Source: an uncultured Methanosarcinales archaeon
Lineage (GTDB): Archaea > Nanobdellota > Nanobdellia > Woesearchaeales > DATDXC01
DNA length: 64,000 bases
NCBI GenBank assembly: GCA_964510025.1
Contig: CAZDZV010000001.1
Location: forward strand, 165,399-229,398
Direction: 5' to 3'
The position numbers and the translations under genes were made by a program. Below the pieces are notes generated by a model. The model saw only the letters and a list, made by a program, of their open reading frames with translations, made no database searches and was not told the DNA's origin. Shown piece by piece: positions 9,806 through 26,156 of this stretch; position 1 is the stretch's first letter; the number at the start of each line of letters is the position of its first letter.

Positions 9806-9922
9806 AAAACCAAAAATTATCAGGATTACAATACCGAGTAGAAAGAAGATTGTTATTTGAGATTTTAAGGAAACCTTAATCGCCTCTTTTTTGCTAAACA
9901 GTGGACTAGAATAATTTAAATC

Positions 9923-12900
9923 TTACTCCAAACCATGCGTCCTGATCCTTGCAGTCAAATCCAACCAGGTTCTAAATCCAAGATAGTTATGCTGTACACC
10001 ACTAATAGGGCTGGGAGGAGCAGGCATATATTGAACATAGTGGTTATTTGCCGATGCATAACAACTTATAGATTCCCTATCCCATCCGACACCCCACCTA
10101 TCATTCATCAAATTAATATTGTAGGCCTCAACAGCTGAACAGATATCTGAATCGAAATGGGAATATTTGACCGAAAAAAATGTATTTTTGCCTTCATGCC
10201 TGCTGATATTAGTCTCCATTAATCCCTTTATTTCTTTATCCCCGTCCTTTAGTAAATATATTTTGTTAAAATCCTTTGTATATTTGATAAAATCCCAAGC
10301 ATCTTCCTGGGGATCATAGTGTGGCTGTGGTGGCTTTAGGGTATTCCTTATGAAGTCTATTATGCCTTTGAAGGGGTTCCTAATCCATATCAAAAACTTC
10401 TGCCATAGGTTTGGTTCATCTAAGTCTATTTCTTGGTTGCTGTATATAACGCTTTGAGTTTTCCTATTGTACCATGCTTTTGCAGGGTTGCAGGCTGAAT
10501 AGTTGCCATATATCCCTGTTTGTGGTTTGGATATTGCATTATCACAATCGTTGAGATTCATATCCGGAAACAGTAGGATGAAAGGAAAGTGCCGGTTATC
10601 ATTTAGCAAATTTATGGGCTGGTTTAAGGAGGTTCCGAAAGCGACTTTCTTGTTAGTTCCTTGATGATAGACAAGGACACACATCTTATTTACGCATTTA
10701 TCCTGATCAGCCGTATAAACAGAATTGTCATCACATTCAAAGATGTCCAGCTCATTATTATAGCCTTCTAAGAAGTTCCATGCCTTTGCCTCAATCGTAG
10801 TGTGCCTTTCATATTCAAAATAGTTCAGTGTATTTTGATAGCTGTCACAGAATAAGGTATAATTTTCCTCTGAGCCCTGTTTCTCCACCAGATCAAGGAG
10901 CTGGAGGGCTACTAATTTTGTCCTTGATGTCCAGGAGCCATTCTCACAAAAATGGTCTAAGGTCCAGTTCCCCGGATCTACACATCCTCCTAGCTCAGGA
11001 AGATAACACTGTTGGTTGGTATTATCACAGTAGCCACAGGTGTTTCTTTCTTTGCAGCCTGTATCAGGAATCTCGTACCATGCATATTTGAGCTCAAGCG
11101 GAATGCTCCATGATCCATCGCTGCATCTTCTCATCTCATCGCTGATATTATACGGCTCCTCTCTCGCAGGATAGCAGGTGCTGTTCCATACACAGTCCTC
11201 AGCAGCACTGCAGCACGCATCATCATCCTGGTCATCAAAATCAGGATTTTTATAGTAGTTATAGTGCTCTCCAGAGTCATCTCCGCAGCACTCCTGAATG
11301 CCAAAAGTCCGGTTGTATTCACCAAAGCCTGAATATTCTCCGCTCTTCGCCCAGAACCTTGTGTCGCTGTTATAATCTGCATTGAAGTGGCTTAGGTCAT
11401 CGCCGAATAAAGCTTCGCAGTACAAGGGATCTTCATCTGGATCAGTCCATTGGCCGTTTAAGCATATATGTCTCTTGCCGTCGAACGAATAAGTGCTGTT
11501 GGTATAGGTCTCATGAGGGGGGACGGTCGGCGGTGGATTGTTTGGCCCTGGCGGCTCTGGACAAGATATATCATTACAGAACACATCGCGGTAACATACA
11601 TCATCTGCAACACAGTCTAGCGGGTGGTTGCAGCATGCGTGATTAGATAGGGAAGAATCGGGAATGCAGCTGGCTGCACAGTCTGCGCCTGCAGATGCCT
11701 CGCACTGACTGCTGTTTGTCTGGCATACTACTGATTTATTATATTCATCCACATCATCTCCGCAGCATTCTGCAGAATCTGCCGCCTCCCCATCAATATT
11801 CCACCTATCTTGGCCCACCATACAATCGCAGACTATTTGTGAATAATCTGGCTCAATGAAGTATGAACCTTGGTCACAGGCGCCTATGCTTGAGCCTATC
11901 TCGCCATTACAGCTGTTGTCCAGCATATCATCACCGCAGCATGCGCCGGAAATGTTTAACCAACATCCGGTTTCGCCTTCTACATCACATACATCCTGGA
12001 TACCAGGTTCACCACATTCACATACTGAGGAACCTATAATCTCGATAGAATCATAATAGATAGGGGAGTCCTCGCCTGAAGGAGAATTTCCGTGAAGCAA
12101 AAATCTCCATTCATGGCTAGCAGTTGGATCTCCGAATGCATCGACCAAAGGAACAGTCATCACCTTTGTCAAGGTTTGCCACTGATTTTTGCCGGGCTCC
12201 TGCCATGAGTAGGTCCTTCCTACAATATCCCCTGAAATATCCTTCCAGTCGAAGTCTTTTAAGGTAACCCAGACACTGTGTTCCAGGGTGGTATTATACC
12301 TAACCTTAATTGTATAGGTGCTCCCCGGATTTAGAAATATGGGGGCTGAGGTAACTTCCTGGCGACCCCTGTTCTCTGTTTCCATTTTAACGCATTTTTC
12401 GCTATAACAGCCGCTATTCACAATTGTCTCGTAGTTCTGTGATTCATCGGCGCCGGTATCATCATAACTCTTGTGTTCCCAGTGATCAAAATCATCTTCA
12501 AAACCAGGGTTCTTTATCAGGTTTCTTCCATCGCCATCCACAACTTCACCTGCTGAGCAGCCCGTATATCCCGGACCGCAATAATATTCGGCAAAATCAT
12601 CGCCACAGCAGTTACCTGTATCAACGCCTGATTGGTATACAACCCAGTGATCAGGCCCCATGTAGCAGATACAGTCTGCTTCGTCTGCGTCCCAGTCTAC
12701 AGTATATATCGGGTTGCCGGGGTAACTTTTTGTGGTTGTTCCTAGGATATCATCCCACGCTGCTGCTCTTATGGATACAGTGCCTTCTGCACTACAAAAA
12801 GGCATTTCCGGCTGATCCTCGCTTCCTACCAGATGGGAACAGGTATTTGCATCCTCACAGGTTGCTGCTGTATACCAGTTGCCATCGTAGTGGACTTCCA

Positions 12901-12973
12901 CATAGGTATGTTCTGAAAAAGCCATAACTGAACATAGCACTCCCACCAAAATTAATGTACACAGCTTATTCAT
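9923..12973 (-). CDS. Cys-rich secreted protein (1016 aa) with CBM4/9-like carbohydrate-binding module
   Basis: Signal peptide MNKLCTLILVGVLCSVMAFS/E. NLIKNPGFEDDFDHWEH...IYYDSIEII matches the usual start and end of CBM_4_9-type modules. There are four copies of a CCGDD motif (NCCGDDFAEYY, ACCGDDMLDNS, ECCGDDVDEYN, ECCGDDSGEHYNYY). Confidence 0.8.
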   Translation of the reverse strand: MNKLCTLILVGVLCSVMAFSEHTYVEVHYDGNWYTAATCEDANTCSHLVGSEDQPEMPFCSAEGTVSIRAAAWDDILGTTTKSYPGNPIYTVDWDADEADCICYMGPDHWVVYQSGVDTGNCCGDDFAEYYCGPGYTGCSAGEVVDGDGRNLIKNPGFEDDFDHWEHKSYDDTGADESQNYETIVNSGCYSEKCVKMETENRGRQEVTSAPIFLNPGSTYTIKVRYNTTLEHSVWVTLKDFDWKDISGDIVGRTYSWQEPGKNQWQTLTKVMTVPLVDAFGDPTASHEWRFLLHGNSPSGEDSPIYYDSIEIIGSSVCECGEPGIQDVCDVEGETGCWLNISGACCGDDMLDNSCNGEIGSSIGACDQGSYFIEPDYSQIVCDCMVGQDRWNIDGEAADSAECCGDDVDEYNKSVVCQTNSSQCEASAGADCAASCIPDSSLSNHACCNHPLDCVADDVCYRDVFCNDISCPEPPGPNNPPPTVPPHETYTNSTYSFDGKRHICLNGQWTDPDEDPLYCEALFGDDLSHFNADYNSDTRFWAKSGEYSGFGEYNRTFGIQECCGDDSGEHYNYYKNPDFDDQDDDACCSAAEDCVWNSTCYPAREEPYNISDEMRRCSDGSWSIPLELKYAWYEIPDTGCKERNTCGYCDNTNQQCYLPELGGCVDPGNWTLDHFCENGSWTSRTKLVALQLLDLVEKQGSEENYTLFCDSYQNTLNYFEYERHTTIEAKAWNFLEGYNNELDIFECDDNSVYTADQDKCVNKMCVLVYHQGTNKKVAFGTSLNQPINLLNDNRHFPFILLFPDMNLNDCDNAISKPQTGIYGNYSACNPAKAWYNRKTQSVIYSNQEIDLDEPNLWQKFLIWIRNPFKGIIDFIRNTLKPPQPHYDPQEDAWDFIKYTKDFNKIYLLKDGDKEIKGLMETNISRHEGKNTFFSVKYSHFDSDICSAVEAYNINLMNDRWGVGWDRESISCYASANNHYVQYMPAPPSPISGVQHNYLGFRTWLDLTARIRTHGLE

Positions 12974-13107
12974 TTTTTCTTATCTTCCTGGATTTTTAAG
13001 GCTAAAGCTTCATGGATATATTCTATCAAGGTCTTATTCTGAAGAACAGCATTTAATTTCGCTTTCTTGTGCAATTCCTTATCTATATCAATGTTGATTC
13101 TGGTCAT
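12970..13107 (-). CDS. Small VapB/DUF2191-like ribbon-helix-helix protein, 45 aa
   Basis: Read by hand: ATG 13107..13105 gives MTRINIDIDKELHKKAKLNAVLQNKTLIEYIHEALALKIQEDKKK*. The N-terminal (T/R)xNIDIDxEL strand followed by two helices is the VapB-antitoxin-type RHH pattern. Its TGA overlaps the ATG of the 1016-aa gene (ATGA). Confidence 0.55.
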   Translation of the reverse strand: MTRINIDIDKELHKKAKLNAVLQNKTLIEYIHEALALKIQEDKKK

Positions 13108-13268
13108 TATAAGTTAACTAAGTTAATTTGCTTTGTTTAATAAGCAAAATAACTTTACTTAGTTATATATATTTAAGTATATAACTTATTATTCATTATA
13201 CTAGTATTTAAATATTCCGAATATTTAGCAGATAATCTGTGGAGGATTGAAAAATCATAGGGTATTTT

Positions 13269-14363
13269 TTGCCCGCCATCATCGGGCTTGGCGGGGCAAC
13301 AAGCTACGAGGATCTGAGATATGGCAGAATAAGCAACAAATGGGTAGTATTAGGGCTGGCCTATTCTTTCTTTATGTACATTATATTAATTGCATATTAC
13401 AGCATGAATAGCAGAATTTCCGGAACATACCTCATAGAGCTAGCTACTAATTTTATATTTGCTTTAGCAGTAGGCTTTGGATTATGGTATATTAGGGTAT
13501 GGACTGCTGGAGACGGCAAGCTTTTTATTGCATATGCTGCCCTACTGCCCTTATCTGTCTATACCAAAGGCTATCAGAAATATATACCTTGTTTTGTCTT
13601 TCTAACCAACATTTTTATATCTGCAGCAGCAATAATGGTCTTCTATGTCTTATTCAAGGCAGGATTGAGAAAATGCGCCCAGGTAGCCTTGACTTTTATT
13701 AGAGAATTTTTTAAGCTGAAAAATCTCCTTGAATCTGCGATAAGCTTATTCGCTATCTATTGGATTATTGATATCCTTTTTCATTTTTTACAGCTGGGAA
13801 ACAACCTTGTATTGAGAATATCATTTACTATATTCGCTTTTTCAGCGGTCAGGGCGAAATTTGGACCGAATACAGTATACGCTACTGCAGTTATCTCTGT
13901 GTTCAGATTATTTTTCGATGACTCTGTTTTCTCTGTCGGCTTCCTTACTAATTTTCTATTTCTGATATTTGTATGGAGATTATTCAGAAGCCTAGTCAGA
14001 GGAAGCCTCTCCAAATTGGCTGAAGATATTTTTTCAAAGGATGTTCCTGTGGATAAACTGGAGGAGGGCATGGTTTTAGGTGAAATACTGCGAGAAACCA
14101 GAGGGGGGTCGCAAACTATCAACTATGGGGGAAAAGCTTATGAAAAAACATCAAAAAATTTCCTTGACTTAGAAAATTTTCTGGATGAAGAACCTGAGGG
14201 CTTAACCAAGCGGCAGATAATGAAGCTTAAAAATATGGGGATCAAGGAGATAAAGGTGAGCCAGACGATCGCATTCGCCCCCTTTATCTTTCTTGGAGCT
14301 ATCCTAACTTTAATTGCAAAAGGAAACATTTTAATATTTATCCGAAACCTCTTTCAGCTATGA
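13269..14363 (+). CDS. A24-family aspartyl membrane peptidase (prepilin/preflagellin peptidase-like) with inserted soluble domain
   Basis: Polytopic membrane protein. The first Asp motif is SYEDLRYGRISN. The second catalytic motif, WTAGDGKLFIAYAALLP, matches G-x-G-D-x-K-L of PibD/FlaK-type enzymes. The terminal helix is AFAPFIFLGAIL. The start is a TTG, the only canonical start after the in-frame TGA at 13248. Confidence 0.7.
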   Translation: MPAIIGLGGATSYEDLRYGRISNKWVVLGLAYSFFMYIILIAYYSMNSRISGTYLIELATNFIFALAVGFGLWYIRVWTAGDGKLFIAYAALLPLSVYTKGYQKYIPCFVFLTNIFISAAAIMVFYVLFKAGLRKCAQVALTFIREFFKLKNLLESAISLFAIYWIIDILFHFLQLGNNLVLRISFTIFAFSAVRAKFGPNTVYATAVISVFRLFFDDSVFSVGFLTNFLFLIFVWRLFRSLVRGSLSKLAEDIFSKDVPVDKLEEGMVLGEILRETRGGSQTINYGGKAYEKTSKNFLDLENFLDEEPEGLTKRQIMKLKNMGIKEIKVSQTIAFAPFIFLGAILTLIAKGNILIFIRNLFQL

Positions 14364-14764
14364 AAGGTTTGAAGGTTAAGGGCAATTCTGCGGAAATTAG
14401 AGTGGATCCGAAGGTCTATCCGCTGGAGGCTGTTTATTCTGCAGCCTATGTTTTTTTGGATAAGGCGTATTTTATCCTTGATGGCGATCCTAAGAAGGAG
14501 ATTATCGTCAATCTTGAAGCAAAAGAAAAAAGCATGGGTGAGAAAGTAGCAAAAGAATTTCTTAATGAACTTATCAATTACGCTGATTACATAACGAGAG
14601 CCAAGCAGACAAAAAAACTCAGGGAGACAATCCTTCAAAGGGCGCTAATAACGAATGATCCACTTATGCTGGAGGATGATGTATCTGATGATTTTATAGA
14701 TGATCCTGAAGGTATTGCAATACCATGGGAGGAAAAGTATGGTAAGGATAAAGCTAAGCAATAA
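14360..14764 (+). CDS. HxsD-like small protein (His-Xaa-Ser system accessory protein candidate)
   Basis: ATGA overlap with the peptidase gene. IRVDPKVYPLEAVYSAAYVFLDKAYFILDG...EFLNELINYADYITRAKQTKKLRETILQRAL resembles my recollection of the HxsD family (TIGR03976, LLNDYxLRE-type motif). It is adjacent to HxsB-like and HxsA-like genes. The assignment is from memory and not searched. Confidence 0.4.
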   Translation: MKGLKVKGNSAEIRVDPKVYPLEAVYSAAYVFLDKAYFILDGDPKKEIIVNLEAKEKSMGEKVAKEFLNELINYADYITRAKQTKKLRETILQRALITNDPLMLEDDVSDDFIDDPEGIAIPWEEKYGKDKAKQ

Positions 14765-14930
14765 GTTATATAGGAAAAAAGCGGTTATTAAGGCACTAAA
14801 TGATTTCAAAGAAATTATGGACGGAAGAATACTGAATGAGGATATGGATATTGAAGTTCTTCCTAAAGAGCAAATAGAGAATTTAGACAAGGAATTCTGT
14901 AATTACGTTCTGGGTCTGATGAAAGGATAA
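14739..14930 (+). CDS. Second small HxsD-like/half-size paralog (63 aa)
   Basis: MVRIKLSNKLYRKKAVIKALNDFKEIMDGRILNEDMDIEVLPKEQIENLDKEFCNYVLGLMKG has the same layout as the preceding ORF: strand, then Y...A(V/I)..A...F, then a terminal EFxNyvL motif. It overlaps the upstream gene by 26 nt and ends 1 nt before the rSAM gene. Confidence 0.35.
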   Translation: MVRIKLSNKLYRKKAVIKALNDFKEIMDGRILNEDMDIEVLPKEQIENLDKEFCNYVLGLMKG

Positions 14931-14931
14931 A

Positions 14932-16293
14932 ATGGACTATGTGATGGCGAATTATCGGTCAAAAAGATTTGGCGATAAGTATTTCGTGACTACTGATCAT
15001 GGAAGCCACTGCATACTAAATGCCAAGGAATTCTCTAAATTGAAGCATAACAAGATGGATAGAAAATTGCTGGATAAACTGGAAAATAGCGAGGTTATCC
15101 TAAATACACAGAATATGGAAGAAGCCAGGGGATTGATGAGAAAAAGGTATAATTTCCTGTTCTCAGGGGCATCTTTGCATATCATAGTTGTAACATTGAG
15201 ATGCAATATGAACTGTATCTACTGCCATGCCAGTTCCAGAAATAAAAAGGAAGAAGGTTTTGATATGGATAAGGCGACAGCTGAAAAAACGGTAGATTTC
15301 ATAATGCAGGTGCCGCAACAGGATATCACGATAGAATTCCAGGGCGGCGAGCCCCTATTGAACTGGGAGGTTGTCAAGCATATAATTGAATACAGCCAGG
15401 AAAAGGCCAAGGCATTTGATAAGAACCTTATGCTCACTCTTGTGACAAACATGTCCTATATGGACGAAAATAAGATGGATTACCTGATAGATAAGGGGGT
15501 AGCGATATGCACATCTCTAGATGGCCCCAAGAAGCTGCATGACCATAACCGAGCATCATCAGGCAGCAACTATGAACAGGTGGTAAAGTGGATAAAGAGA
15601 TTCAATGAAGAATATAAAAAAAGAGCAATAGAGAACAGAAGGATAAATGCCCTAGTTACCTTGACCAAGGAAAGCCTGAAATACTGGAAGGAGATCATAG
15701 ATGAGTACTATCATTTGGGGCTGAGGAGCATACATCTTAGATTCCTCAACAAGCTGGGTGTTGCCAAGAAGGCATGGTCTTCAATCAATTACAGTGTCGA
15801 TGATTATCTTAGGTTCTGGAAAAAATCCGTTGATTATATAGATAAAATTGGAAACCAAGAATTTGAAGAAAGAATGGTAAAGATAATGGAAAACAAGATA
15901 GCCAAGCAGCATGACCCTAATTATCTAGATTTAAGAAGCCCCTGCGGTGCAGCTATTGGCCAGCTGGCATATCACCACAATGGCGACATATATACATGTG
16001 ATGAAGCAAGGATGATTGGTGAAGACCTTTTTTTGCTAGGAAATGTGAAAAAGGACAAATATAAGGATATAGTAACAAGTGATAAGGCATGTGCAACTGT
16101 AGCTGCTTCCATAAACGACCAGTATGTCTGCAATGATTGTGTCTACAAGCCTTATTGCGGCATATGCCCCGTCTGTAATTACGCGGAAACAGGCAGCGTC
16201 ATAGGAAGAATAAGCGAGTCAGCCAGATGTAAGATCTTTAAAGAACAGTTTGATTGGGTTGTGAAAGAAAGATTTATAAATAAGAAAAACTAG
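14932..16293 (+). CDS. Radical SAM/SPASM-domain maturase, HxsB-like
   Basis: CX3CX2C motif in VVTLRCNMNCIYCHAS, plus GGEPLL. The C-terminal auxiliary-cluster region is CGAAIGQLAYHHNGDIYTCDE...CNDCVYKPYCGICPVCNY (SPASM-type). An ~85-aa N-terminal extension precedes the cluster motif. It lies directly upstream of the His-Xaa-Ser repeat peptide gene. Confidence 0.75.
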   Translation: MDYVMANYRSKRFGDKYFVTTDHGSHCILNAKEFSKLKHNKMDRKLLDKLENSEVILNTQNMEEARGLMRKRYNFLFSGASLHIIVVTLRCNMNCIYCHASSRNKKEEGFDMDKATAEKTVDFIMQVPQQDITIEFQGGEPLLNWEVVKHIIEYSQEKAKAFDKNLMLTLVTNMSYMDENKMDYLIDKGVAICTSLDGPKKLHDHNRASSGSNYEQVVKWIKRFNEEYKKRAIENRRINALVTLTKESLKYWKEIIDEYYHLGLRSIHLRFLNKLGVAKKAWSSINYSVDDYLRFWKKSVDYIDKIGNQEFEERMVKIMENKIAKQHDPNYLDLRSPCGAAIGQLAYHHNGDIYTCDEARMIGEDLFLLGNVKKDKYKDIVTSDKACATVAASINDQYVCNDCVYKPYCGICPVCNYAETGSVIGRISESARCKIFKEQFDWVVKERFINKKN

Positions 16294-16304
16294 TATTAGA
16301 TAAA

Positions 16305-16613
16305 ATGAAGATTCCTAGGTTAAAGAAGAAGATAAGGTCTTTTCTTACAAAAGAGGATGGAAAGATAAGCAAGGAAGCTTTGCTGAAGACAGGGATTCTA
16401 CTAAGCGCTGCTGCCCTAGCTTCATTGAATGCTGCTGCAGATTGCCCAGCTGACAGTTCCCTCAGCCATAATGATCATTGCAATGACCTGAGCATAGGAT
16501 ATGACGAACCTAGTGCAGTTGCGACAGCAGGGCATAATCATGGACATGGGAGCCATGCGTCACATGCAAGCCATGGATCACACGGAAGTCATGGAAGCCA
16601 CAATAGCTGGTGA
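16305..16613 (+). CDS. His-Xaa-Ser repeat peptide (HxsA-like candidate precursor), 102 aa
   Basis: It has a basic N-terminus, a hydrophobic stretch (ALLKTGILLSAAALASLNAAA), two Cys, and the C-terminal HNHGHGSHASHASHGSHGSHGSHNSW. Seven H-x-S triplets lie at nt 16545-16607, encoded with mixed His (cat/cac) and Ser (agc/tca/agt) codons. Confidence 0.7.
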   Translation: MKIPRLKKKIRSFLTKEDGKISKEALLKTGILLSAAALASLNAAADCPADSSLSHNDHCNDLSIGYDEPSAVATAGHNHGHGSHASHASHGSHGSHGSHNSW

Positions 16614-17377
16614 ATATGTTAAAAAAAAGACAGATCTACGTATCCTTAATTGTTTTATTATTGATAGTTGGGGCTGTTTTTGTCATAACTAGAATAAAGG
16701 AAATTGAAAAACCAAAAAAACCTGAAACAGAGCAATTAAAAGACTGCACAGGGATCAATGACATATATCTTCATTGTATGAGCCTCATGGCTGCATCAGA
16801 TTCTTTTTGCCAAACAGAGGAATGGGCAGTTGATACCTACGAGCTTCAAAAAGATAGAGATTTTTGCCTTTATTTTAGAAAATATAAGGAAGCAATTATA
16901 AAAAAAGACAGAGAAGTTTGCTTAGAAATCCTAGACCTTGATAATTTTGACTCATATGACTGCTCAAAGGACGAATTTGGATGCCCTGACCAGCCACTAA
17001 ATTGTTACATAGCATTGTCCGAGGATGCATCTGTTTGTGATGAGTTAGATAGGATAATAATAAAGGGATTTACCCAAGAAGAAAAAAAGGATTACTGTAA
17101 TCTTGTGTTCGAGTTAGAAAAAGAGGAAAGACATTATGAAACTGATTTATTCAAAAATAGGAATAAAGATACACAAAAAATAATGACAATGATACAATCA
17201 ATAAGAAGAAAGGATCCGGCATTGTGTGTACATATGGATAAACACTCAAGAGATTTTGTAGCTTGTCATATCTATAGCAGCCTATATACCTATGGTTCGG
17301 GAAATATAGACCAAGACTTCTGCGACCAGTTCAAGGAATGTGATCCTAAAGAAGGCATGCTACAAATTGAAGATTAG
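16610..17377 (+). CDS. Membrane-anchored Cys-rich protein (255 aa)
   Basis: The GTG start overlaps the TGA of the peptide gene; an alternative ATG lies at 16616. The N-terminal anchor is IYVSLIVLLLIVGAVFVIT. The ectodomain has 14 Cys, mostly in D/F-x-C contexts. I recognise no family. Confidence 0.6.
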   Translation: MNMLKKRQIYVSLIVLLLIVGAVFVITRIKEIEKPKKPETEQLKDCTGINDIYLHCMSLMAASDSFCQTEEWAVDTYELQKDRDFCLYFRKYKEAIIKKDREVCLEILDLDNFDSYDCSKDEFGCPDQPLNCYIALSEDASVCDELDRIIIKGFTQEEKKDYCNLVFELEKEERHYETDLFKNRNKDTQKIMTMIQSIRRKDPALCVHMDKHSRDFVACHIYSSLYTYGSGNIDQDFCDQFKECDPKEGMLQIED

Positions 17378-19227
17378 AGACCTTCGATAAATATATTAAA
17401 TAAATTATCTAGCTTTAGATTCATTTTGTCTTCTTTTGAAGAATAATCTTCAGGTTCATCATCCAGAAGGCCTAACTGCCCAAAATCAGATATATCCATT
17501 ACATTGGCTATCCTCTTTTGCGGTTGATTTTGCATAATGAATTTATTATTTGAATAAATATCGCCATTACAGTCAATGCACCAGCCCCTTGTAAACAAAT
17601 AGGAGTCCTGCCAAACCTCCTTGTTGATAACATCTATTTCTTTATCCACCAAAAAATCTCTAATTTTTTGCATTTCGCTTTCAAGTACCTTAAAATCTTT
17701 TATGTGCCAATCATCATAAAAAGCTGGTAGAAAATTGAATTTCCTAAAGCCCTTATTATACAAATATTTGAAATTTTCAAAGAAATTACCGCAATTGTTA
17801 TTAGACACAACCATATTTAGAGAAACATAATCCACAAAAGGTGTTAGGACCTTAATAACCTTGCTAGATTTTTTTCCCCTATTTTTGGTCTGCCATTTAT
17901 CTTTACCGTCAACACTTACCCTTAGTTCAACATTATTGAGCCTAAAATAATTAATTATCTCTTTTGTAAGCAATACCCCATTTGTGGTTAACACAAATTT
18001 AGTATTGTCATTTTTGGAAGTGGCATAGTGGATTATTCTCTTAACCAGATCTAATTCCAATAAGGGTTCCCCCCCAAAAAACCTAACATAGTAAAAAGGG
18101 GATTTTAAATTCAATAATAGATCTAGACTCTTTTTTGCGGTTTTAAAAGATATAGATTCTTCTTTTTTTACAGTTATACAATATTTGCAATCAAGATTGC
18201 ATTTATATGTAACAACCAAAACCAACACCGGCAACCTATTAGATATCTTAAACAACTTAAGAAATTCCTGACTTATTTCCTTTTTTTCCCTTCCCTTAAA
18301 GTAGGCCTTATATAGTCCCTTACAAGATTTGCTTAAAATGCATTTTTTACATAAAGCAAATTTATGCTTAAAGGATTCTATGTTATCCTTTAATTTACCA
18401 GTATCTTCCTTATTCAGATCAGTAGTGCTAGTACTGTATCCTTTATCCAATGCAGCAAACAAACCAAGTGTTTCTATCCTGCCATCTTCACCAATATACA
18501 AGCTTGAGCTTATATCCTGAAAATGTATTTTTTTTGTATTAAGAATGCTATCTCTGAAAATACATAATGGGAAATCTTCCACATCTATCGTATCCACTAA
18601 CTCTTTAGCCTTGAATAAAAAGTAATTTAAAGAAGTTAACTCTAATAAAGACGGGGAGTACTTATTGTAATCATCTTTCAACCTACCAAAAGGTCCCAGC
18701 ATCAAGATTCCCAATTCTCTTATCTTCAGGGCATCTACCAAAAACAAATAGTCGTCTAACTGCTTAATATTGCCGGACCAGATGGGGATGTTTAAACATA
18801 CAGTTTCATCAGCTTCCAAAAGATTTTTTATACCCTTGATGGTCTGCTTGAAGCTGCCCCGAGTTCTTGTCCAGGATTCATGTATCTTTTCAGTTGCCCC
18901 AAATAGTGTTATATTGAAGCTTGAAACCGCCCCTTTAACTTTTTTGATATATCCTTTATAAGAAAAAAACCTTCCGTTCGAGGTTAACACTGTCTTATAG
19001 CCCAATTCTTTAGCGATCGCCAAAATCTCCAACAGATCCGGATGAAGTGTTATTTCACCCCCAATTGGATGAAATATCCGATAGCCTTGTTTTACTCCCT
19101 CCTTTAATTCTTCTTTTATAGAACTTAGGCTCCTGTATTCATTTTTTTGGATATTTGGATCCACAGCGCAACCAATACAATTATTATTACAAGAATTATT
19201 GACATTAAGGTATAATATCTTTCTCAT
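17374..19227 (-). CDS. Fusion of two radical SAM domains (617 aa)
   Basis: Domain 1 has NNSCNNNCIGCAV, IGGEIT, HESWTRTRGSFKQTIKGIKNL, and CKKCILSKSCKGLYKAY. Domain 2 has TYKCNLDCKYCI (aa 343-350) and FGGEPLL. ATGA-type 4-nt overlap with the upstream gene. Confidence 0.8.
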   Translation of the reverse strand: MRKILYLNVNNSCNNNCIGCAVDPNIQKNEYRSLSSIKEELKEGVKQGYRIFHPIGGEITLHPDLLEILAIAKELGYKTVLTSNGRFFSYKGYIKKVKGAVSSFNITLFGATEKIHESWTRTRGSFKQTIKGIKNLLEADETVCLNIPIWSGNIKQLDDYLFLVDALKIRELGILMLGPFGRLKDDYNKYSPSLLELTSLNYFLFKAKELVDTIDVEDFPLCIFRDSILNTKKIHFQDISSSLYIGEDGRIETLGLFAALDKGYSTSTTDLNKEDTGKLKDNIESFKHKFALCKKCILSKSCKGLYKAYFKGREKKEISQEFLKLFKISNRLPVLVLVVTYKCNLDCKYCITVKKEESISFKTAKKSLDLLLNLKSPFYYVRFFGGEPLLELDLVKRIIHYATSKNDNTKFVLTTNGVLLTKEIINYFRLNNVELRVSVDGKDKWQTKNRGKKSSKVIKVLTPFVDYVSLNMVVSNNNCGNFFENFKYLYNKGFRKFNFLPAFYDDWHIKDFKVLESEMQKIRDFLVDKEIDVINKEVWQDSYLFTRGWCIDCNGDIYSNNKFIMQNQPQKRIANVMDISDFGQLGLLDDEPEDYSSKEDKMNLKLDNLFNIFIEGL

Positions 19228-20222
19228 CTTAAGCTTCTTTTCTGCCTTAAGCTATTTATCTCTTTTTCTATCTGAGATGCCCCTACTAATTTTATGTAAT
19301 CACAAAATATACCTTCACAAAGCCTTATCCTTGGACACCCCTCACAGGATTTTATTTTTATTCTGTATCTTTTAAACTTATTTTCTGCAGATTCTGATTG
19401 CCTTTGAAACGTAAGATTAGAATTAACGCAGAAATTAAATTCCCTTGCAGCAAATAGGCTGTAATTCTCTATATTTCCTTCCTTGTCTTTGTATATTTTT
19501 CCACTAGTATCAAATATATGCACATCGCCTCTATCCATAAAATCCTGGCTGAATATACACAAAGGAAAATCCTCAATCTCTATATTTAAAAATGATTTAA
19601 ATAATGAAAGCTGATCTTCTAACACTAAAAGCTTTTCTAGAGGCACAAATAACTTGTAATAATTTCTTCTAGCGCGCCCAAGAGGTACAAGATTAAAAAG
19701 ATCTATGTCCCTAATTGCCATTTTTTCCAATAATTCCATAGTCTCTTTGACCTTATCAAAACTTTTCTTCCAAACCAAATAGTTTATACCTACCTTTTTT
19801 GTAAATGACCTCAAGTTGCCTATACCTTGAATAGTCTGTCTAAAACTACCTGGTGTTCTTGTCCAAGATTCATGTATATCTTTATTGGGGCCACAAAGAG
19901 TGATGTTAAAGTGCGTTATTCCTGCATCAACCATTTTTTTTGTAAAACTAGGGTAAGAAAACATCCTTCCATTAGAGGTGATATAAACTTCATCATACAG
20001 TTCCTTTGCCTTCTTAAGAATCTGAAAAATATTATCCTGTATTGTAACTTCCCCTCCGGCGAGATGAAGATTTTTGTATCCTTTCTCAGCCCCAAGCTCC
20101 AAATCCCTGAATATACCGCTTATATCCCTACCATTTTTGGGCTTATTGAGATTATTATCCGCACAACCCAGACAATTATTATTGCATCCATTCTCTGTTG
20201 AGACAAAAAATATTTTCTTCAT
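19224..20222 (-). CDS. Radical SAM protein (332 aa)
   Basis: Motifs are ENGCNNNCLGCAD, AGGEVT, HESWTRTPGSFRQTIQGIGNL, and the C-terminal CEGCPRIRLCEGIFCDY. It is a paralog of domain 1 of the 617-aa protein. Confidence 0.8.
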   Translation of the reverse strand: MKKIFFVSTENGCNNNCLGCADNNLNKPKNGRDISGIFRDLELGAEKGYKNLHLAGGEVTIQDNIFQILKKAKELYDEVYITSNGRMFSYPSFTKKMVDAGITHFNITLCGPNKDIHESWTRTPGSFRQTIQGIGNLRSFTKKVGINYLVWKKSFDKVKETMELLEKMAIRDIDLFNLVPLGRARRNYYKLFVPLEKLLVLEDQLSLFKSFLNIEIEDFPLCIFSQDFMDRGDVHIFDTSGKIYKDKEGNIENYSLFAAREFNFCVNSNLTFQRQSESAENKFKRYRIKIKSCEGCPRIRLCEGIFCDYIKLVGASQIEKEINSLRQKRSLR

Positions 20223-22909: not shown

Positions 22910-22961
22910 TTCTAATAAATTTAAGCTTTAAATTTATTTCCTCACCGACATTACTTATCCC

Positions 22962-23879
22962 TTACGCTATTGATCTAAGTTTAACATATGTTTTCCAATA
23001 GCCTTCGCATATCTCATCATATTTACAGGTACCGCATTTACCAATCTTTGTTCTTCCTATTTTCCTTCGATTTTCTTCAGCATACCTATTTACAAAGTCT
23101 GGAGCTAAATGCTCTGTATGGAATTTTTTGACTTCATGTAGCTCACTTATCCGGTGATGGTATTTTTCACCAACAAAACATAAGGGATAATACCTTATAT
23201 GCCAATGACTTATTTTCCTTTCATTTCCAAACTCCAGTATTTTATCAACATAAGTAGAAACTTCTTCATAAGTTGGGACCAATTCAAAAAATCTTTTTTT
23301 TGGGCCCCCGTGTGTTGGGTCGACAAAAATAAACTCAGAATTATCAATGCCCAAACCATAAATAAATTTTCCAATTTCTAATAGATCTTTATAGTTTTGT
23401 TTTACTATTGTGGTATTTGACCCTATATTCTTAAATCCGATATTCTGAAGATTTTTTATTCCTTGTATTAGTTGCTGAAAGCTTCCCGGAACTTGCGTTA
23501 ACCTATCATGTAACTCTGGGTTGTGACCATGTATGGAAAAAACAACATGGTTTACACCTTCATCGATTATCTTTTTTGCAAATTCCTTATTTGAAAACAT
23601 CCTACCATTAGTTGCAAACATAATTGTCTCGAAACCGAACTTCTTTGCAAATGACACAATTTCAAAAATATCTCTCCTTATTGTTGGTTCCCCACCAATA
23701 AGTTCCAAGTATCTACTTCCATGTTTTTTCGCCCTCAAAATATCCTCCTTTATTTCTAGTGTTGGTTTGTCCAATACTTTTTCTCTTTTATCCTCATTAC
23801 AACAAAATATGCATTTATTATTGCAGGTATAACCCATGAATACTACTGTCTTTTTAGTTTTCATTTCTGAATAAATCAA
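22962..23879 (-). CDS. Radical SAM protein (305 aa)
   Basis: Motifs are GYTCNNKCIFCCN, IGGEPT, HDRLTQVPGSFQQLIQGIKNL and CGTCKYDEICEGYWKTY. It overlaps the upstream gene end by 26 nt; an alternative start is M6 at 23864. Confidence 0.8.
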   Translation of the reverse strand: MIYSEMKTKKTVVFMGYTCNNKCIFCCNEDKREKVLDKPTLEIKEDILRAKKHGSRYLELIGGEPTIRRDIFEIVSFAKKFGFETIMFATNGRMFSNKEFAKKIIDEGVNHVVFSIHGHNPELHDRLTQVPGSFQQLIQGIKNLQNIGFKNIGSNTTIVKQNYKDLLEIGKFIYGLGIDNSEFIFVDPTHGGPKKRFFELVPTYEEVSTYVDKILEFGNERKISHWHIRYYPLCFVGEKYHHRISELHEVKKFHTEHLAPDFVNRYAEENRRKIGRTKIGKCGTCKYDEICEGYWKTYVKLRSIA

Positions 23880-25242: not shown

Positions 25243-26156
25243 TCTTTGATAGCCCTAAACTCCTTATCCCCAAATTTTTCAGGATACTCCTTCCAAGGCC
25301 CCTCACACATATTATCGTATTTGCATTCTCTACACTGCGAAAATTTGGATTTTCCTTCTTTCACCCTAGTATATTTATAATCATCAACAACCACATCAAA
25401 ATCTATTATTTTTGTTTCTGGTATAAATCTCTCTGAGACATAATCCTCAAATCCATGCATCATACAATAAGGCATTCCTTCTGCCATAACATTAATCCCT
25501 GCATCGATCCCTATTTGAAGGCCCCTATGAACATAGGGTGCAACTAGACTCATTTTAGGCACCATTTCATCATAATATTTATGGGCGTTCCCTATTGGGT
25601 GAACAAATGCAAATTGAAACTGATCAACCCCCAATTTGACAAGTAATTTTGCTATCTCTGGAAGATGTTTGTAATTTGGTTTTACCACAACTGAGTTAGT
25701 TATAATCTTTTGGTCAAGGAGCCTTAAATTCTTTATTGCTTGTATTGTCTGTCTGAAGCTGCCGGGACTTCTGGTCAAGAAATCATGAACATTTGGATTA
25801 TGTCCATGCACTGCGGGAGAAAATTCATTTGCACCAGAGGCTATTAATTTCTTTGTGAATCCCATATTTGACAGCATCCTGCAGTTCGACTGAATCTGTA
25901 TTATGCCATAGCCTATATCCCTAGCATACCCCACCAGATCAAACAAATCTGGCCTTATTGTAACTTCTCCTCCTGTGAAGACAATATCCTCGCAGTTGGC
26001 TCTAGCCTTTGAAATCTTCTCCTTTACCTCTGCTGTTGGTAAATTACCCAGGTGTTTTTTATGAGCCTGAACACAGAATCTGCAGCTATTATTGCATACA
26101 AAGCCTGTTTTAAGGTCTAATCTCTTGCCCCCCATAGACAGAAGAGAAGAATTCAT
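25239..26156 (-). CDS. Radical SAM protein (305 aa), first gene of the rSAM operon
   Basis: Motifs are GFVCNNSCRFCVQ, TGGEVT, HDFLTRSPGSFRQTIQAIKNL and CRECKYDNMCEGPWKEY. It is a paralog of 22962..23879. It starts only 17 nt downstream of the Rpp30 stop. Confidence 0.8.
   Translation of the reverse strand: MNSSLLSMGGKRLDLKTGFVCNNSCRFCVQAHKKHLGNLPTAEVKEKISKARANCEDIVFTGGEVTIRPDLFDLVGYARDIGYGIIQIQSNCRMLSNMGFTKKLIASGANEFSPAVHGHNPNVHDFLTRSPGSFRQTIQAIKNLRLLDQKIITNSVVVKPNYKHLPEIAKLLVKLGVDQFQFAFVHPIGNAHKYYDEMVPKMSLVAPYVHRGLQIGIDAGINVMAEGMPYCMMHGFEDYVSERFIPETKIIDFDVVVDDYKYTRVKEGKSKFSQCRECKYDNMCEGPWKEYPEKFGDKEFRAIKE

What the first reader, a model, noticed from the sequence alone, without database searches (positions are those of the whole stretch)
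16305..16613. Candidate precursor peptide with seven C-terminal His-Xaa-Ser triplets
The translation ends ...AGHNHGHGSHASHASHGSHGSHGSHNSW. The HxS triplets (nt 16545-16607) use mixed synonymous codons (cat/cac; agc/tca/agt). The periodicity is therefore maintained at protein level and is not a recent DNA slippage repeat. The N-terminal 60 aa (a basic stretch plus ALLKTGILLSAAALASLNAAA) look like a leader or anchor. Two Cys (DCPAD, HCND) precede the repeat. Such a His/Ser array could be a metal-binding or rSAM-crosslinked core. Its chemistry is unknown.
Basis: partly seen in the sequence, partly recalled or inferred. Interest (0 to 1): 0.75.

Follow-up and report, generated by a model that had tools for sequence, protein, structure and literature searches.

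The report
Archaeal His-Xaa-Ser radical-SAM peptide precursor
This small gene in a DPANN archaeon encodes the histidine/serine-repeat substrate of a "His-Xaa-Ser" radical-SAM maturation cassette; this kind of system was recently shown to block phage DNA entry in E. coli, but here it comes in an undescribed archaeal layout with its own membrane protease and six extra radical-SAM enzymes.

Summary
ORF 16305..16613 (+) encodes a 102-aa peptide ending in seven consecutive HxS triplets with mixed codons, which chance does not produce.

It is a real, conserved gene. It has 96 close homologs and 838 profile-level cluster representatives, mostly 80-130 aa, from DPANN archaea and some CPR bacteria. It sits in a tight operon: A24-type GxGD peptidase, HxsD, HxsD-like, HxsB, the peptide, then a Cys-rich membrane protein. 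This operon faces six HxsC-like radical-SAM genes.

HxsB, HxsD and HxsD-like pass NCBIfam cut-offs. The peptide fails TIGR03979 (19.8 bits against 121.65) and just misses HxsA4 (52.8 against 55).

It is therefore a divergent variant of the known HXS system (Haft and Basu 2011; antiphage role shown in E. coli in 2026), not a new class. The differences are:
- no peptidoglycan-binding domain;
- no basic residues in the repeats;
- a highly conserved 30-aa leader;
- a cassette-specific A24 peptidase, present in 17 of 19 independently sampled loci;
- expansion of HxsC paralogs;
- a core-chromosome location rather than a plasmid.

Most likely the peptide is modified in the cytoplasm by the radical-SAM enzymes, loses its leader, and is displayed at the cell surface. 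Its function in archaea is untested.

The parts
13269..14363 (+). Cassette-specific A24-type (GxGD) membrane aspartyl peptidase, 364 aa; candidate leader peptidase
   Evidence: Pfam Peptidase_A24 scores 25.3 (cut-off 26.5) and Arc_PepC 24.5 (cut-off 23.4). It has 108 homologs, many carrying PF01478 or PF06819. D15 and D82 (in AGDGK) are invariant across 46 sequences. The AF2 model has pLDDT 92.4 and its top PDB match is FlaK 3s0x (prob 0.98, E 0.14). The gene lies next to HxsD/HxsB in 17 of 19 independently sampled loci, and also in homologs of only 31-37% identity.
14360..14764 (+). HxsD (134 aa)
   Evidence: TIGR03976 scores 52.5 bits, cut-off 50. It overlaps the stop of the peptidase gene by 4 nt.
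14700..14930 (+). HxsD-like small protein (probable start at ATG 14739, about 63 aa)
   Evidence: NF038315 scores 49.1 bits, cut-off 41. A 66-82 aa gene sits at the same position in relatives.
14932..16293 (+). HxsB, radical SAM/SPASM maturase (453 aa)
   Evidence: TIGR03978 scores 431.3 bits, cut-off 370. Pfam finds Radical_SAM and SPASM. It is 34% identical to the annotated Aeromonas HxsB, E 4e-90. CX3CX2C motif at residue 91.
16305..16613 (+). HxsA-type precursor (HxsA4-like), 102 aa, the finding itself
16305..16394 (+). Leader, residues 1-30 (MKIPRLKKKIRSFLTKEDGKISKEALLKTG): net basic and the most conserved part of the peptide
   Evidence: The mean majority-residue fraction is 0.77. P4, F13, E17 and G19 are invariant. 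K7, K8, L14, K20, I21, K23 and G30 are at least 90% conserved.
16395..16439 (+). Hydrophobic segment, residues 31-45 (ILLSAAALASLNAAA): signal-peptide-like h-region or membrane anchor
   Evidence: The Kyte-Doolittle maximum is 2.3 over residues 31-41, but only 1.47 over a 19-residue window. AF2 predicts a helix over residues 23-44.
16476..16544 (+). Conserved core motifs H58-x-N60 and H77-x-H79, predicted as a beta-hairpin (residues 57-80)
   Evidence: H77 is invariant. H58 and N60 are at least 90% conserved. AF2 predicts strands 57-67 and 70-80 at pLDDT 66-74.
16545..16607 (+). Seven HxS triplets (residues 81-101), followed by the C-terminal Trp (16608-16610)
   Evidence: The His and Ser columns are 0.76-0.89 conserved, while the X columns are about 0.3. 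The last residue is W in most of the 46 close relatives (majority fraction 0.65), and Y or W in 76 of 128 diverse representatives.
16610..17377 (+). Fast-evolving protein with an N-terminal TM helix and 14 Cys (253-255 aa), translationally coupled to the precursor gene
   Evidence: No Pfam or NCBIfam hit. Only one homolog was found, at 56% identity. Genes with the same architecture follow the peptide in L001, L003, L005, L006, L012 and L034.
17374..19227 (-). Two-domain radical SAM protein (617 aa): HxsC-like N-terminal half, SPASM-maturase-like C-terminal half
   Evidence: HxsC TIGR03977 scores 103.5 bits over residues 8-228 and PapB 119.6 over residues 334-526. It has two CX3CX2C motifs and one CxxCx5CxG motif.
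19224..20222 (-). HxsC-like radical SAM protein (332 aa)
   Evidence: The best NCBIfam hits are HxsC at 88.8 bits and HxsC4 at 88.0 bits. It has CX3CX2C and CxxCx5CxG motifs.
20219..22909 (-). Fusion of a HemN-like radical SAM domain with an HxsC-like radical SAM domain (896 aa)
   Evidence: The N-terminal half hits the HemN family. The C-terminal half scores 87.6 on HxsC4 and 85.2 on HxsC. Pfam finds HemN_C. It has two CX3CX2C motifs.
22962..23879 (-). HxsC4-like radical SAM protein (305 aa)
   Evidence: NF038332 scores 151.2 bits (cut-off 500) and HxsC 102.1. Orthologs of 46-69% identity occur in L001, L005, L012, L026 and L034.
23854..25242 (-). Closest HxsC homolog (462 aa), with a C-terminal DUF483 domain
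   Evidence: TIGR03977 scores 168.7 bits (cut-off 267.9) over profile positions 31-290 of 292. It is the best BLAST match of the Aeromonas HxsC, 27% identity, E 6e-27.
25239..26156 (-). HxsC4-like radical SAM protein (305 aa), the most widely conserved partner
   Evidence: NF038332 scores 165.9 bits. Orthologs of 48-66% identity occur in L001, L003, L008, L015, L025, L028, L032, L033 and L034.

Best explanation
The ORF encodes the ribosomal substrate (HxsA-type, closest to NCBIfam HxsA4/HxsA3) of an archaeal variant of the His-Xaa-Ser (HXS) radical-SAM maturation system.

Proposed course of events:
1. The 102-aa precursor is made with a conserved basic 30-aa leader, a short hydrophobic segment, and a His/Ser-rich acidic C-terminal region.
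2. In the cytoplasm the leader recruits HxsB (radical SAM/SPASM) together with HxsD and HxsD-like. HxsB and one or more of the six HxsC-type radical-SAM paralogs then install covalent modification(s) in the conserved HxN...HxH-(HxS)n core.
3. The cassette's own A24/GxGD membrane aspartyl peptidase removes the leader at the cytoplasmic face. The most likely site is after the near-invariant G30, just before the hydrophobic segment, as in class III signal peptides.
4. The mature peptide of about 57-72 aa ends up outside the cell, anchored or released.
5. By analogy with the only studied relative (E. coli HXS), it may act at the envelope as a barrier to virus entry. Because its repeats lack basic residues, it may act through bound metal or another mode rather than by direct electrostatic DNA binding.

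What is shown and what is inferred: the gene, its family, its architecture and the conserved cassette are shown. Modification by HxsB and the HxsC-like enzymes is inferred from family membership and E. coli genetics. Cleavage by the A24 peptidase is inferred from synteny (I put it at about 45%). An antiviral role is by analogy only (about 30-35%).
For: Family and architecture:
- 96 homologs and 838 cluster representatives at E<=1e-3.
- The leader is the most conserved region; the His and Ser columns are constrained.

Cassette:
- HxsB, HxsD and HxsD-like pass curated cut-offs.
- The operon is tightly packed, with gaps of 12 nt or less.
- The order A24-like, HxsD, HxsD-like, HxsB, peptide recurs in Woesearchaeota, Nanoarchaeota, Micrarchaeota and Altiarchaeota.
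- All six minus-strand radical-SAM genes have HxsC or HxsC4 as best or near-best family. Each shares the CX3CX2C motif and the C-terminal CxxCx5C motif with the annotated Aeromonas HxsC.

Peptidase:
- Both catalytic Asp are invariant, and FlaK is the top structural match.
- Homologs of only 31-37% identity still sit beside HxsD/HxsB. The most distant homolog instead sits beside a class III signal protein.
- G30 is at least 90% conserved and is followed by a hydrophobic stretch.

Precedents:
- In E. coli, HxsB, HxsC and HxsD are all required for a non-canonical N-terminal cleavage, a +8 Da modification in an HxS repeat, export and antiphage activity (PMC13128918).
- An intramembrane protease already serves a radical-SAM peptide: EpeP, family M50 (PMC10885120).
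Against: - The peptide is below the curated cut-off of every HxsA model, and no HxsC-like gene reaches the HxsC or HxsC4 cut-off.
- There is no expression, mass-spectrometry or activity data for any member of this clade.
- The site around G30 lacks the K/R at position -2 typical of class III signals. The hydrophobic stretch is short, 11-15 aa. No Pfam family, Class_IIIsignal included, matched the peptide at E<=0.01.
- The segment h-region plus NAAA|D also resembles an ordinary Sec signal peptidase site.
- Two HxsB loci with enough upstream sequence (L018, L034) lack the A24-like gene.
- Against an antiviral role by the E. coli mechanism: the mature region has 0 Lys/Arg and 5 Asp/Glu; X in the repeats is G, S, A or N and never K or R across the family; there is no peptidoglycan-binding domain; PADLOC finds nothing specific; and the locus lies in the conserved RNase P p30 / TBP / MCM chromosomal neighbourhood rather than on a mobile island.
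Confidence: 0.6

Rival explanations
1. It is a straightforward ortholog of the bacterial HXS antiphage effector and works the same way. The matured peptide sits in the envelope and binds incoming viral DNA electrostatically through its HxS repeats.
For: HxsB and HxsD are members by curated cut-offs. HxS repeats are present. The E. coli mechanism has been published. Repeat number, radical-SAM complement and the downstream Cys-rich protein all vary quickly, as expected of conflict systems.
Against: The mature region has no Lys or Arg and is net acidic. X is never basic across 46 relatives, whereas the canonical repeats read HRSHRSHSSHRSH. There is no peptidoglycan-binding domain, and archaea lack peptidoglycan. 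There is no BLAST similarity to canonical HxsA or HxsD. The location is core-chromosomal and syntenic, whereas the bacterial loci sit on conjugative plasmids beside restriction and Tn7-type genes. No member occurs on viral contigs and PADLOC gives no specific hit.
Confidence: 0.15
2. It is a metal-binding peptide (Ni, Zn, Cu or Fe capture, storage or delivery). The His-rich tail and the conserved His/Asn hairpin coordinate metal. The radical-SAM enzymes cross-link the peptide to pre-organise or stabilise the site.
For: The mature region has 11 His, 5 Asp/Glu and 2 Cys and no basic residues; the family medians are 10 His and 2 Cys. Invariant H77 and near-invariant H58, N60 and H79 fall on opposite strands of a predicted hairpin. 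The cassette is chromosomal, vertically conserved and housekeeping-like in small DPANN genomes.
Against: No metal transporter, chaperone or metalloenzyme gene is conserved in the cassette. Repeat number ranges from 0 to 20, which is unusual for a defined metal site. The AF2 model has only moderate confidence, pLDDT 68. The one experimentally studied relative has a different role.
Confidence: 0.2
3. It is a small pilin-like or surface-anchored protein processed by the adjacent prepilin-type peptidase, and its His/Ser tail is simply low-complexity sequence. The radical-SAM genes act on something else.
For: The A24 peptidase is adjacent. The peptide has a Gly followed by a hydrophobic segment. 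Giant surface proteins lie upstream.
Against: The peptide gene begins 12 nt after the HxsB stop codon and keeps that position in 25 or more loci. No pilus-assembly ATPase or platform gene is present in the cassette. The hydrophobic segment is too short for a pilin helix. The His and Ser columns are selectively conserved. The leader matches the curated HxsA3 and HxsA4 models.
Confidence: 0.04
4. It is a spurious ORF, or a recent DNA slippage repeat with no function.
For: The C-terminus is low-complexity, and Tandem Repeats Finder detects a weak 18-nt periodicity.
Against: There are 96 homologs with 100 to 27% identity and a conserved start, leader and motifs. The codons are mixed. Synteny is conserved across phyla.
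Confidence: 0.01

Closest known systems
HXS (HxsABCD) antiphage system of E. coli, Klebsiella and other Pseudomonadota (Haft and Basu 2011, J Bacteriol 193:2745, known to me only from reference lists; Li et al. 2026, PMC13128918)
   Same: Both have a ribosomal substrate with tandem His-Xaa-Ser repeats next to HxsB (radical SAM/SPASM), HxsD and HxsC-type radical-SAM genes. In both the substrate has an N-terminal hydrophobic export signal and is expected to be processed at its N-terminus.
   Different: The canonical HxsA is about 190-215 aa, with a plain Sec signal, basic repeats (HRS/HSS) in the middle and a C-terminal peptidoglycan-binding domain. Here the substrate is a 102-aa peptide with a conserved 30-aa leader, neutral X residues, repeats at the extreme C-terminus and no further domain. 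The gene order is D-D'-B-A with convergent C-like genes, rather than D-B-C-A. There are six HxsC paralogs instead of one. The cassette adds an A24 peptidase and a Cys-rich membrane protein. The hosts are archaea and CPR bacteria, and the location is core-chromosomal rather than plasmid-borne.
NCBIfam variant models HxsA4 (NF038313), HxsA3 (NF038309), HxsC4 (NF038332) and HxsD-like (NF038315)
   Same: The peptide aligns end to end with HxsA4 (profile positions 1-93 of 93). All 46 aligned relatives hit HxsA3 and 39 hit HxsA4. The HxsD-like gene passes its cut-off.
   Different: The peptide scores 52.8 on HxsA4 (cut-off 55) and 29.1 on HxsA3 (cut-off 65). The best HxsC4 score is 165.9, against a cut-off of 500. 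This clade is therefore a relative that those curated models do not capture; the few relatives that carry a source name are called hypothetical proteins.
Archaeal class III signal peptides and their A24 prepilin peptidases (PibD, FlaK, EppA)
   Same: The enzyme is a GxGD aspartyl protease with both catalytic Asp and an Arc_PepC domain. The candidate substrate has a charged N-terminus, a conserved Gly, and then a hydrophobic stretch.
   Different: There is no K/R at position -2. The leader is unusually long at 30 aa. The hydrophobic segment is short. No pilus or archaellum assembly genes are present. The peptidase clade is linked specifically to Hxs genes and not to pilins.
Epipeptide system EpeX/EpeE/EpeP (a radical-SAM-modified peptide with an intramembrane M50 protease)
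   Same: The logic is the same: a radical-SAM-modified ribosomal peptide whose leader removal and export are assigned to a membrane-embedded protease encoded in the same cluster.
   Different: The protease class differs (M50 metalloprotease against A24 aspartyl). The radical-SAM family and chemistry differ (epimerisation). The two systems are unrelated in sequence.

Membership tests
HXS (His-Xaa-Ser) system | HxsB radical SAM/SPASM maturase (TIGR03978, cut-off 370 bits) | tested here: met
   431.3 bits for 14932..16293. It is 34% identical to the annotated Aeromonas HxsB, E 4e-90.
HXS (His-Xaa-Ser) system | HxsD (TIGR03976, cut-off 50 bits) | tested here: met
   52.5 bits for 14360..14764.
HXS (His-Xaa-Ser) system | HxsC radical SAM maturase (TIGR03977, cut-off 267.9 bits) | tested here: not met
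   The best score is 168.7 bits (23854..25242), covering profile positions 31-290 of 292. The other five genes score 85-104 bits. All six share the CX3CX2C and CxxCx5C motifs with canonical HxsC, so they are HxsC-like paralogs and not equivalogs.
HXS (His-Xaa-Ser) system | HxsA substrate (TIGR03979, cut-off 121.65 bits) | tested here: not met
   19.8 bits. There is no BLAST similarity to Aeromonas HxsA.
HXS (His-Xaa-Ser) system | Tandem His-Xaa-Ser repeats in the substrate | tested here: met
   Seven consecutive triplets, beyond any of 200,000 shuffles. The His and Ser columns are conserved in relatives.
HXS (His-Xaa-Ser) system | Gene order hxsD-hxsB-hxsC-hxsA on one strand (99.6% of bacterial systems, PMC13128918) | tested here: not met
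   The order here is A24-like, D, D-like, B, A, then a TM protein on the + strand. The HxsC-like genes converge on the - strand.
HXS (His-Xaa-Ser) system | HxsA carries a peptidoglycan-binding domain and basic residues in its repeats | tested here: not met
   The peptide has no Pfam domain. Its mature region has 0 K/R, and X is G, A or N. The canonical sequence is shown.
HXS (His-Xaa-Ser) system | Radical-SAM-dependent N-terminal cleavage, +8 Da modification and block of phage DNA entry | not testable with these tools
   This needs expression, mass spectrometry and infection assays.
NCBIfam HxsA4 (NF038313) | Whole-protein score of at least 55 bits | tested here: not met
   52.8 bits, E 5.7e-14, with a full-length alignment over profile positions 1-93 of 93. 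This is a narrow miss. 39 of 46 relatives hit the model at E<1e-3.
NCBIfam HxsC4 (NF038332) | Whole-protein score of at least 500 bits | tested here: not met
   The best scores are 165.9 and 151.2 bits.
NCBIfam HxsD-like (NF038315) | Whole-protein score of at least 41 bits | tested here: met
   49.1 bits for 14700..14930.
Peptidase family A24 (prepilin/preflagellin peptidases, GxGD proteases) | Pfam PF01478 at or above its gathering score (26.5), or the Arc_PepC domain (23.4) | tested here: inconclusive
   PF01478 scores 25.3, just below its cut-off. PF06819 scores 24.5, just above. Many homologs carry one or both domains in precomputed annotation.
Peptidase family A24 (prepilin/preflagellin peptidases, GxGD proteases) | Two catalytic Asp, the second within a GxGD-type motif | tested here: met
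   D15 and D82 (in AGDGK) are invariant in 46 sequences and also in the locus-derived alignment.
Peptidase family A24 (prepilin/preflagellin peptidases, GxGD proteases) | FlaK-like fold | tested here: inconclusive
   FlaK 3s0x is the top Foldseek hit with probability 0.98, but E is 0.14 and the TM-scores are 0.26 and 0.46.
Class III (type IV pilin-like) signal peptide | Motif [K/R]-[G/A] followed by a hydrophobic stretch of about 20 aa; Pfam Class_IIIsignal | tested here: not met
   G30 followed by hydrophobic residues is conserved, but position -2 is T, A or V. The hydrophobic stretch is 11-15 aa. No Pfam family, Class_IIIsignal included, matched the peptide at E<=0.01.

The most novel reading that the evidence does not exclude
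The DPANN/CPR clade of Hxs cassettes is not a mobile defence island. It is a vertically kept, core cell-surface maturation pathway of ultra-small episymbionts. In it a dedicated GxGD (A24) intramembrane protease acts as the leader peptidase and export gate for a radical-SAM-modified peptide, and an array of HxsC paralogs installs several modifications. This would be the first aspartyl intramembrane leader peptidase in RiPP-like biosynthesis. It would also point to the class of enzyme behind the still unexplained 'non-canonical' N-terminal processing of HxsA in bacteria.
Probability: 0.3. Interest if true: 0.7.

Novelty: new variant of a known kind. Interest (0 to 1): 0.5.

Why it matters
The HXS system was a bioinformatic orphan from 2011 until 2026. 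It was then shown to block phage DNA entry in E. coli, but its chemistry (+8 Da) and the protease that trims HxsA remain unknown. That study reported 99.7% of systems in Pseudomonadota.

This window shows a sizeable sister clade, with 838 cluster representatives at E<=1e-3, in DPANN archaea and CPR bacteria. Three things about it are useful:
- It gives a natural minimal substrate of about 100 aa with no extra domain, which suits top-down MS.
- It names a candidate processing enzyme encoded in the cassette (A24/GxGD).
- It shows that the basic residues and the peptidoglycan anchor are not intrinsic to the family. The common denominator is the radical-SAM-modified His/Ser core.

These organisms have roughly 1-Mb genomes, yet this one spends seven radical-SAM genes (nine radical-SAM domains, about 11 kb) on the cassette. 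That investment suggests the cassette matters to their biology.

Tried and rejected
- Pfam on the peptide, HxsD, HxsD-like and the downstream protein: no hits.
- PADLOC: only generic radical-SAM similarity to viperins.
- Rfam and tRNA scans of the window: nothing found.
- PDB sequence search with the A24-like protein: nothing found. A fold search was needed instead.
- Viral contig scan for the peptide family: none found.
- Homolog search for the downstream Cys-rich protein: only one relative, so its family could not be defined.
- Haft and Basu 2011 could not be read, by DOI or by PMC id. It is cited only through reference lists.
- The AF2 model of the peptide has only moderate confidence, pLDDT 68. 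The hairpin and metal-site idea is therefore a hint only.
- Slippage repeat and spurious ORF were considered and rejected on codon diversity and conservation.
- The idea that the A24-like gene is simply the organism's general prepilin peptidase was considered. It is disfavoured because homologs of 31-37% identity remain linked to Hxs genes while the nearest pilin-context homolog is the most distant hit. It is not excluded, because whole genomes could not be scanned.
Full report
OBSERVATION. The ORF at 16305..16613 (+) exists and translates to the 102-aa peptide MKIPRLKKKIRSFLTKEDGKISKEALLKTGILLSAAALASLNAAADCPADSSLSHNDHCNDLSIGYDEPSAVATAGHNHGHGSHASHASHGSHGSHGSHNSW. Residues 81-101 (nt 16545-16607) are seven consecutive His-Xaa-Ser triplets. 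They use CAT/CAC for His and AGC/TCA/AGT for Ser. The 9-nt units are on average 59% identical to each other, and Tandem Repeats Finder reports only a weak 18-nt array of 2.5 copies, score 55. This is the only run of three or more HxS in all six frames of the 64-kb window. In 200,000 composition-preserving shuffles of the peptide, the longest run was 3.

IS IT A GENE? Yes. A search of 5.8 billion proteins returned 96 homologs at E<0.01, nearly all 80-130 aa and from metagenomes. The few with a source name are called hypothetical proteins. A profile search of 1.84 billion cluster representatives found 838 at E<=1e-3 and 260 at E<=1e-10. The alignment of 46 homologs (A1) gives the consensus MxKIPKLKKKIxSFLTKEDGKISKExLIKTG, then a hydrophobic segment, a variable stretch, HxN, TAxGTHxH, (HxS)n and a final W. 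P4, F13, E17, G19 and H77 are invariant. K7, K8, L14, K20, I21, K23, G30, H58 and N60 are at least 90% conserved. The leader (residues 1-30) is the most conserved region, with a mean majority fraction of 0.77. Within the repeat the His and Ser columns are 0.76-0.89 conserved while the X columns are about 0.3, so the periodicity is held at protein level. The length of the run is not fixed. It ranges from 0 to about 20 in related loci. Among 128 diverse representatives the longest run is 0 in 9, 1 in 38, 2 in 26, 3 in 21 and 4 or more in 34. The universal core features are therefore the HxN and HxH motifs just before the run.

WHAT SURROUNDS IT. The organism is an archaeon. The window encodes Hjc, TFE, RNase P p30, RNase Z, TrmB, TBP, MCM, PolD (DP1 and DP2), Orc1/Cdc6, FEN1 and tRNA-splicing endonuclease, and its GC content is 39%. 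The peptide's relatives come from Woesearchaeota and Nanoarchaeota, Micrarchaeota, Aenigmatarchaeota and Altiarchaeota, all DPANN lineages.

The peptide is the fifth gene of a tightly packed plus-strand operon (overlaps, or gaps of 12 nt or less):
- 13269..14363: an A24-type peptidase.
- 14360..14764: HxsD (TIGR03976, 52.5 bits, cut-off 50).
- 14700..14930: an HxsD-like gene (NF038315, 49.1 bits, cut-off 41).
- 14932..16293: HxsB (TIGR03978, 431 bits, cut-off 370).
- 16305..16613: the peptide.
- 16610..17377: a protein with an N-terminal TM helix and 14 Cys, with no family match.

Six radical-SAM genes converge on this operon from the minus strand (17374..26156). Each has HxsC (TIGR03977) or HxsC4 (NF038332) as its best or near-best family for at least one domain, and all are below the cut-offs. 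The best is the 462-aa protein at 168.7 bits against 267.9. Each carries a CX3CX2C motif and a C-terminal CxxCx5CxG motif. The annotated Aeromonas HxsC has the same arrangement (CDNFCIMC ... CDDCASKAVCC), and its best BLAST match in the window is the 462-aa protein (27% identity, E 6e-27). Counting HxsB, the locus holds seven radical-SAM genes with nine CX3CX2C domains.

FAMILY ASSIGNMENT OF THE PEPTIDE. Against NCBIfam the peptide scores 52.8 bits on HxsA4 (NF038313, cut-off 55), aligning over the whole profile. It scores 29.1 on HxsA3 (cut-off 65) and 19.8 on the original HxsA model TIGR03979 (cut-off 121.65). All 46 aligned relatives hit HxsA3 and 39 hit HxsA4 at E<1e-3. The peptide is therefore a relative of curated HxsA variants that falls just outside their thresholds. 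It shows no BLAST similarity to a canonical HxsA.

COMPARATIVE GENOMICS. In 34 non-redundant related loci, 29 have HxsB, 26 HxsD, 19 the HxsD-like gene, 22 the A24-like gene, and 25 at least one further HxsC-like radical-SAM gene. Among HxsB loci with at least 2.5 kb of upstream sequence, 20 of 22 carry the A24-like gene. Leaving out the three loci that were fetched through the peptidase itself, the figure is 17 of 19.

The peptidase association is specific. Homologs of only 37%, 33% and 31% identity (L036, L037, L038) still sit beside HxsD and HxsB. The most distant homolog, named FlaK by its source, instead sits next to a Class_IIIsignal protein with no Hxs genes nearby. The association also survives rearrangements (L015, L026, L032). 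Two loci lack the A24-like gene. One is L018. The other, L034, is a genuine Patescibacteria contig with FtsA and FtsZ that carries HxsD, HxsD-like, HxsB, an 89-aa peptide, a Cys-rich TM protein and radical-SAM genes. The cassette therefore crosses the archaea/bacteria boundary among ultra-small organisms.

The Cys-rich TM protein downstream of the peptide is conserved in position and architecture but barely in sequence.

In several Woesearchaeota-like lineages the cassette lies in the same RNase P p30 / TBP / MCM neighbourhood as in this window. The bacterial HXS loci found with HxsB are mostly on conjugative plasmids (325 of 411 records). [quoted passage not shown]

THE A24-LIKE PROTEIN. The Pfam scores are borderline: Peptidase_A24 25.3 against 26.5, and Arc_PepC 24.5 against 23.4. 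Many of its 108 homologs carry these domains, and a few are named prepilin peptidase, CpaA or FlaK. D15 and D82 (motif AGDGK), the two catalytic aspartates of GxGD proteases, are invariant in 46 sequences. An AF2 model is confident (pLDDT 92.4). Its top PDB match is the GxGD protease FlaK (3s0x; probability 0.98, but E 0.14 and TM-scores 0.26 and 0.46). I take it to be an active A24-type aspartyl protease, with moderate-to-good support.

WHAT IS KNOWN. The His-Xaa-Ser system was defined in silico by Haft and Basu in 2011 (cited in PMC9062424 and PMC13128918; I could not read the paper itself). In 2026, Li et al. (PMC13128918) showed that E. coli HXS is a broad antiphage system. Their findings are as follows:
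- HxsA has a signal peptide, five basic HxS repeats and a peptidoglycan-binding domain.
- HxsB, HxsC and HxsD are all required for a non-canonical N-terminal cleavage of HxsA.
- HxsA acquires a +8 Da modification in the SHRSS motif of the last repeat and is exported to the periplasm.
- There it binds DNA and blocks phage genome entry.
- The radical chemistry and the protease are unknown.
- 99.7% of the systems they surveyed were in Pseudomonadota.
Nothing in the searched literature describes the system in archaea, DPANN or CPR, and nothing links an A24 peptidase to a radical-SAM peptide. A 2023 review of RiPP leader proteases mentions no aspartyl or prepilin-type enzyme. It does describe the intramembrane M50 protease EpeP, which serves the radical-SAM-modified epipeptide.

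HOW IT MOST LIKELY WORKS. What is shown: the precursor's architecture and the conserved cassette. What is inferred from family membership and the E. coli genetics: HxsB, with HxsD and HxsD-like and one or more HxsC-type enzymes, modifies the His/Ser core in the cytoplasm, guided by the conserved leader. What is inferred from specific synteny (my estimate about 45%): the A24-type protease removes the leader at the cytoplasmic face, most plausibly after the near-invariant G30 that precedes the hydrophobic segment. The alternative is ordinary signal-peptidase cleavage after the h-region, at the NAAA|D-type site. The hydrophobic stretch is short (Kyte-Doolittle 2.3 over 11 residues, 1.47 over 19), position -2 is not basic, and the Pfam scan of the peptide returned no family at all, Class_IIIsignal included. 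The AF2 model of the peptide (pLDDT 68) shows helices at residues 4-14 and 23-44, a beta-hairpin at 57-80 that places H58 and N60 opposite H79 and H77, and a disordered HxS tail. That hairpin could be a metal site or a cross-link site, but this is only a hint.

Function is the weakest step. An envelope-level antiviral role is the only one with experimental precedent in the family. However, the mature region here has no Lys or Arg and 5 Asp/Glu. Across 46 relatives the medians are 1 K/R, 3 D/E and 10 His, and X in HxS is G, S, A or N and never basic. There is no peptidoglycan anchor, and the locus behaves like a core chromosomal feature. Direct electrostatic DNA capture as proposed for E. coli is therefore unlikely without metal or low pH. 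A metal-binding role or a surface or host-interaction role is a serious alternative.

VERDICT. The finding is not a new class. It belongs to the known HXS kind and is a near miss to the curated HxsA4 model. It does represent an undescribed variant, for these reasons: an archaeal/CPR clade, a minimal peptide substrate, a dedicated GxGD protease, an HxsD duplication, an array of HxsC paralogs, non-basic repeats and a core-genome location. I rate interest at 0.5 and novelty as a new variant of a known kind.

Noticed in passing
window 1285..7047 (-), 7448..9805 (-), 9923..12973 (-): Three giant predicted surface proteins lie directly upstream of the cassette: 1920 aa with Big_13 and CarboxypepD_reg hits, 785 aa with a Laminin_G_3 (ConA-like lectin) domain, and 1016 aa, Cys-rich, with no family. 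Homologs of the 1016-aa and 785-aa proteins occupy the same position in L001, L007, L020 and L036, so they may be functionally linked to the cassette as a cell-surface island.
   Followed up: partly
window 20219..22909 (-) and 17374..19227 (-): Two unusual two-domain radical-SAM fusions. One joins a HemN-like domain to an HxsC-like domain (896 aa). The other joins an HxsC-like domain to a SPASM/PapB-like domain (617 aa). Relatives carry other fusions: radical SAM with arginase (L003), with DUF364 (L001, L005), and a B12-binding radical SAM with a methyltransferase (L036).
   Followed up: partly
window 23854..25242 (-): The closest HxsC homolog carries a C-terminal DUF483 domain (Pfam 31.3 bits) that the canonical HxsC model does not cover.
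   Followed up: no
protein P0213: This family member has the same leader and GTHNH motif, but instead of an HxS tail it continues into a roughly 150-aa segment that looks by eye like a Hint/intein-type domain (CCFVAGT...HNC). This would suggest an alternative, autoproteolytic C-terminal module on the same leader.
   Followed up: no
L034 (JASEHL010000003.1, Patescibacteria), 7675..20000: A bona fide CPR bacterial contig, with FtsA and FtsZ upstream, carries HxsD, HxsD-like, HxsB, an 89-aa HxsA-type peptide, a Cys-rich TM protein and five or more radical-SAM genes, all on one strand and without the A24-like gene. The cassette is therefore shared between DPANN archaea and CPR bacteria.
   Followed up: partly
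window 26174..26752 (-) through 43300: The cassette is embedded in a conserved block of information-processing genes: RNase P p30, RNase Z, Hjc, TFE, TBP, MCM, PolD DP2 and DP1, and Orc1/Cdc6. This block probably lies near a replication origin. The radical-SAM array is contiguous with the RNase P p30 gene on the same strand (18-nt gap) and may be co-transcribed with it.
   Followed up: partly
L024 and L027 (same MAG, BS150m-G66); L016; L030: Some genomes carry a second leader-containing gene away from any HxsB (L027, L016, L030). In L024 and L027 the reading frame that my script extended from the leader match is 457 and 315 aa, far longer than a peptide. The conserved leader may therefore also be attached to larger proteins, or these may be orphan or decayed copies.
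   Followed up: no
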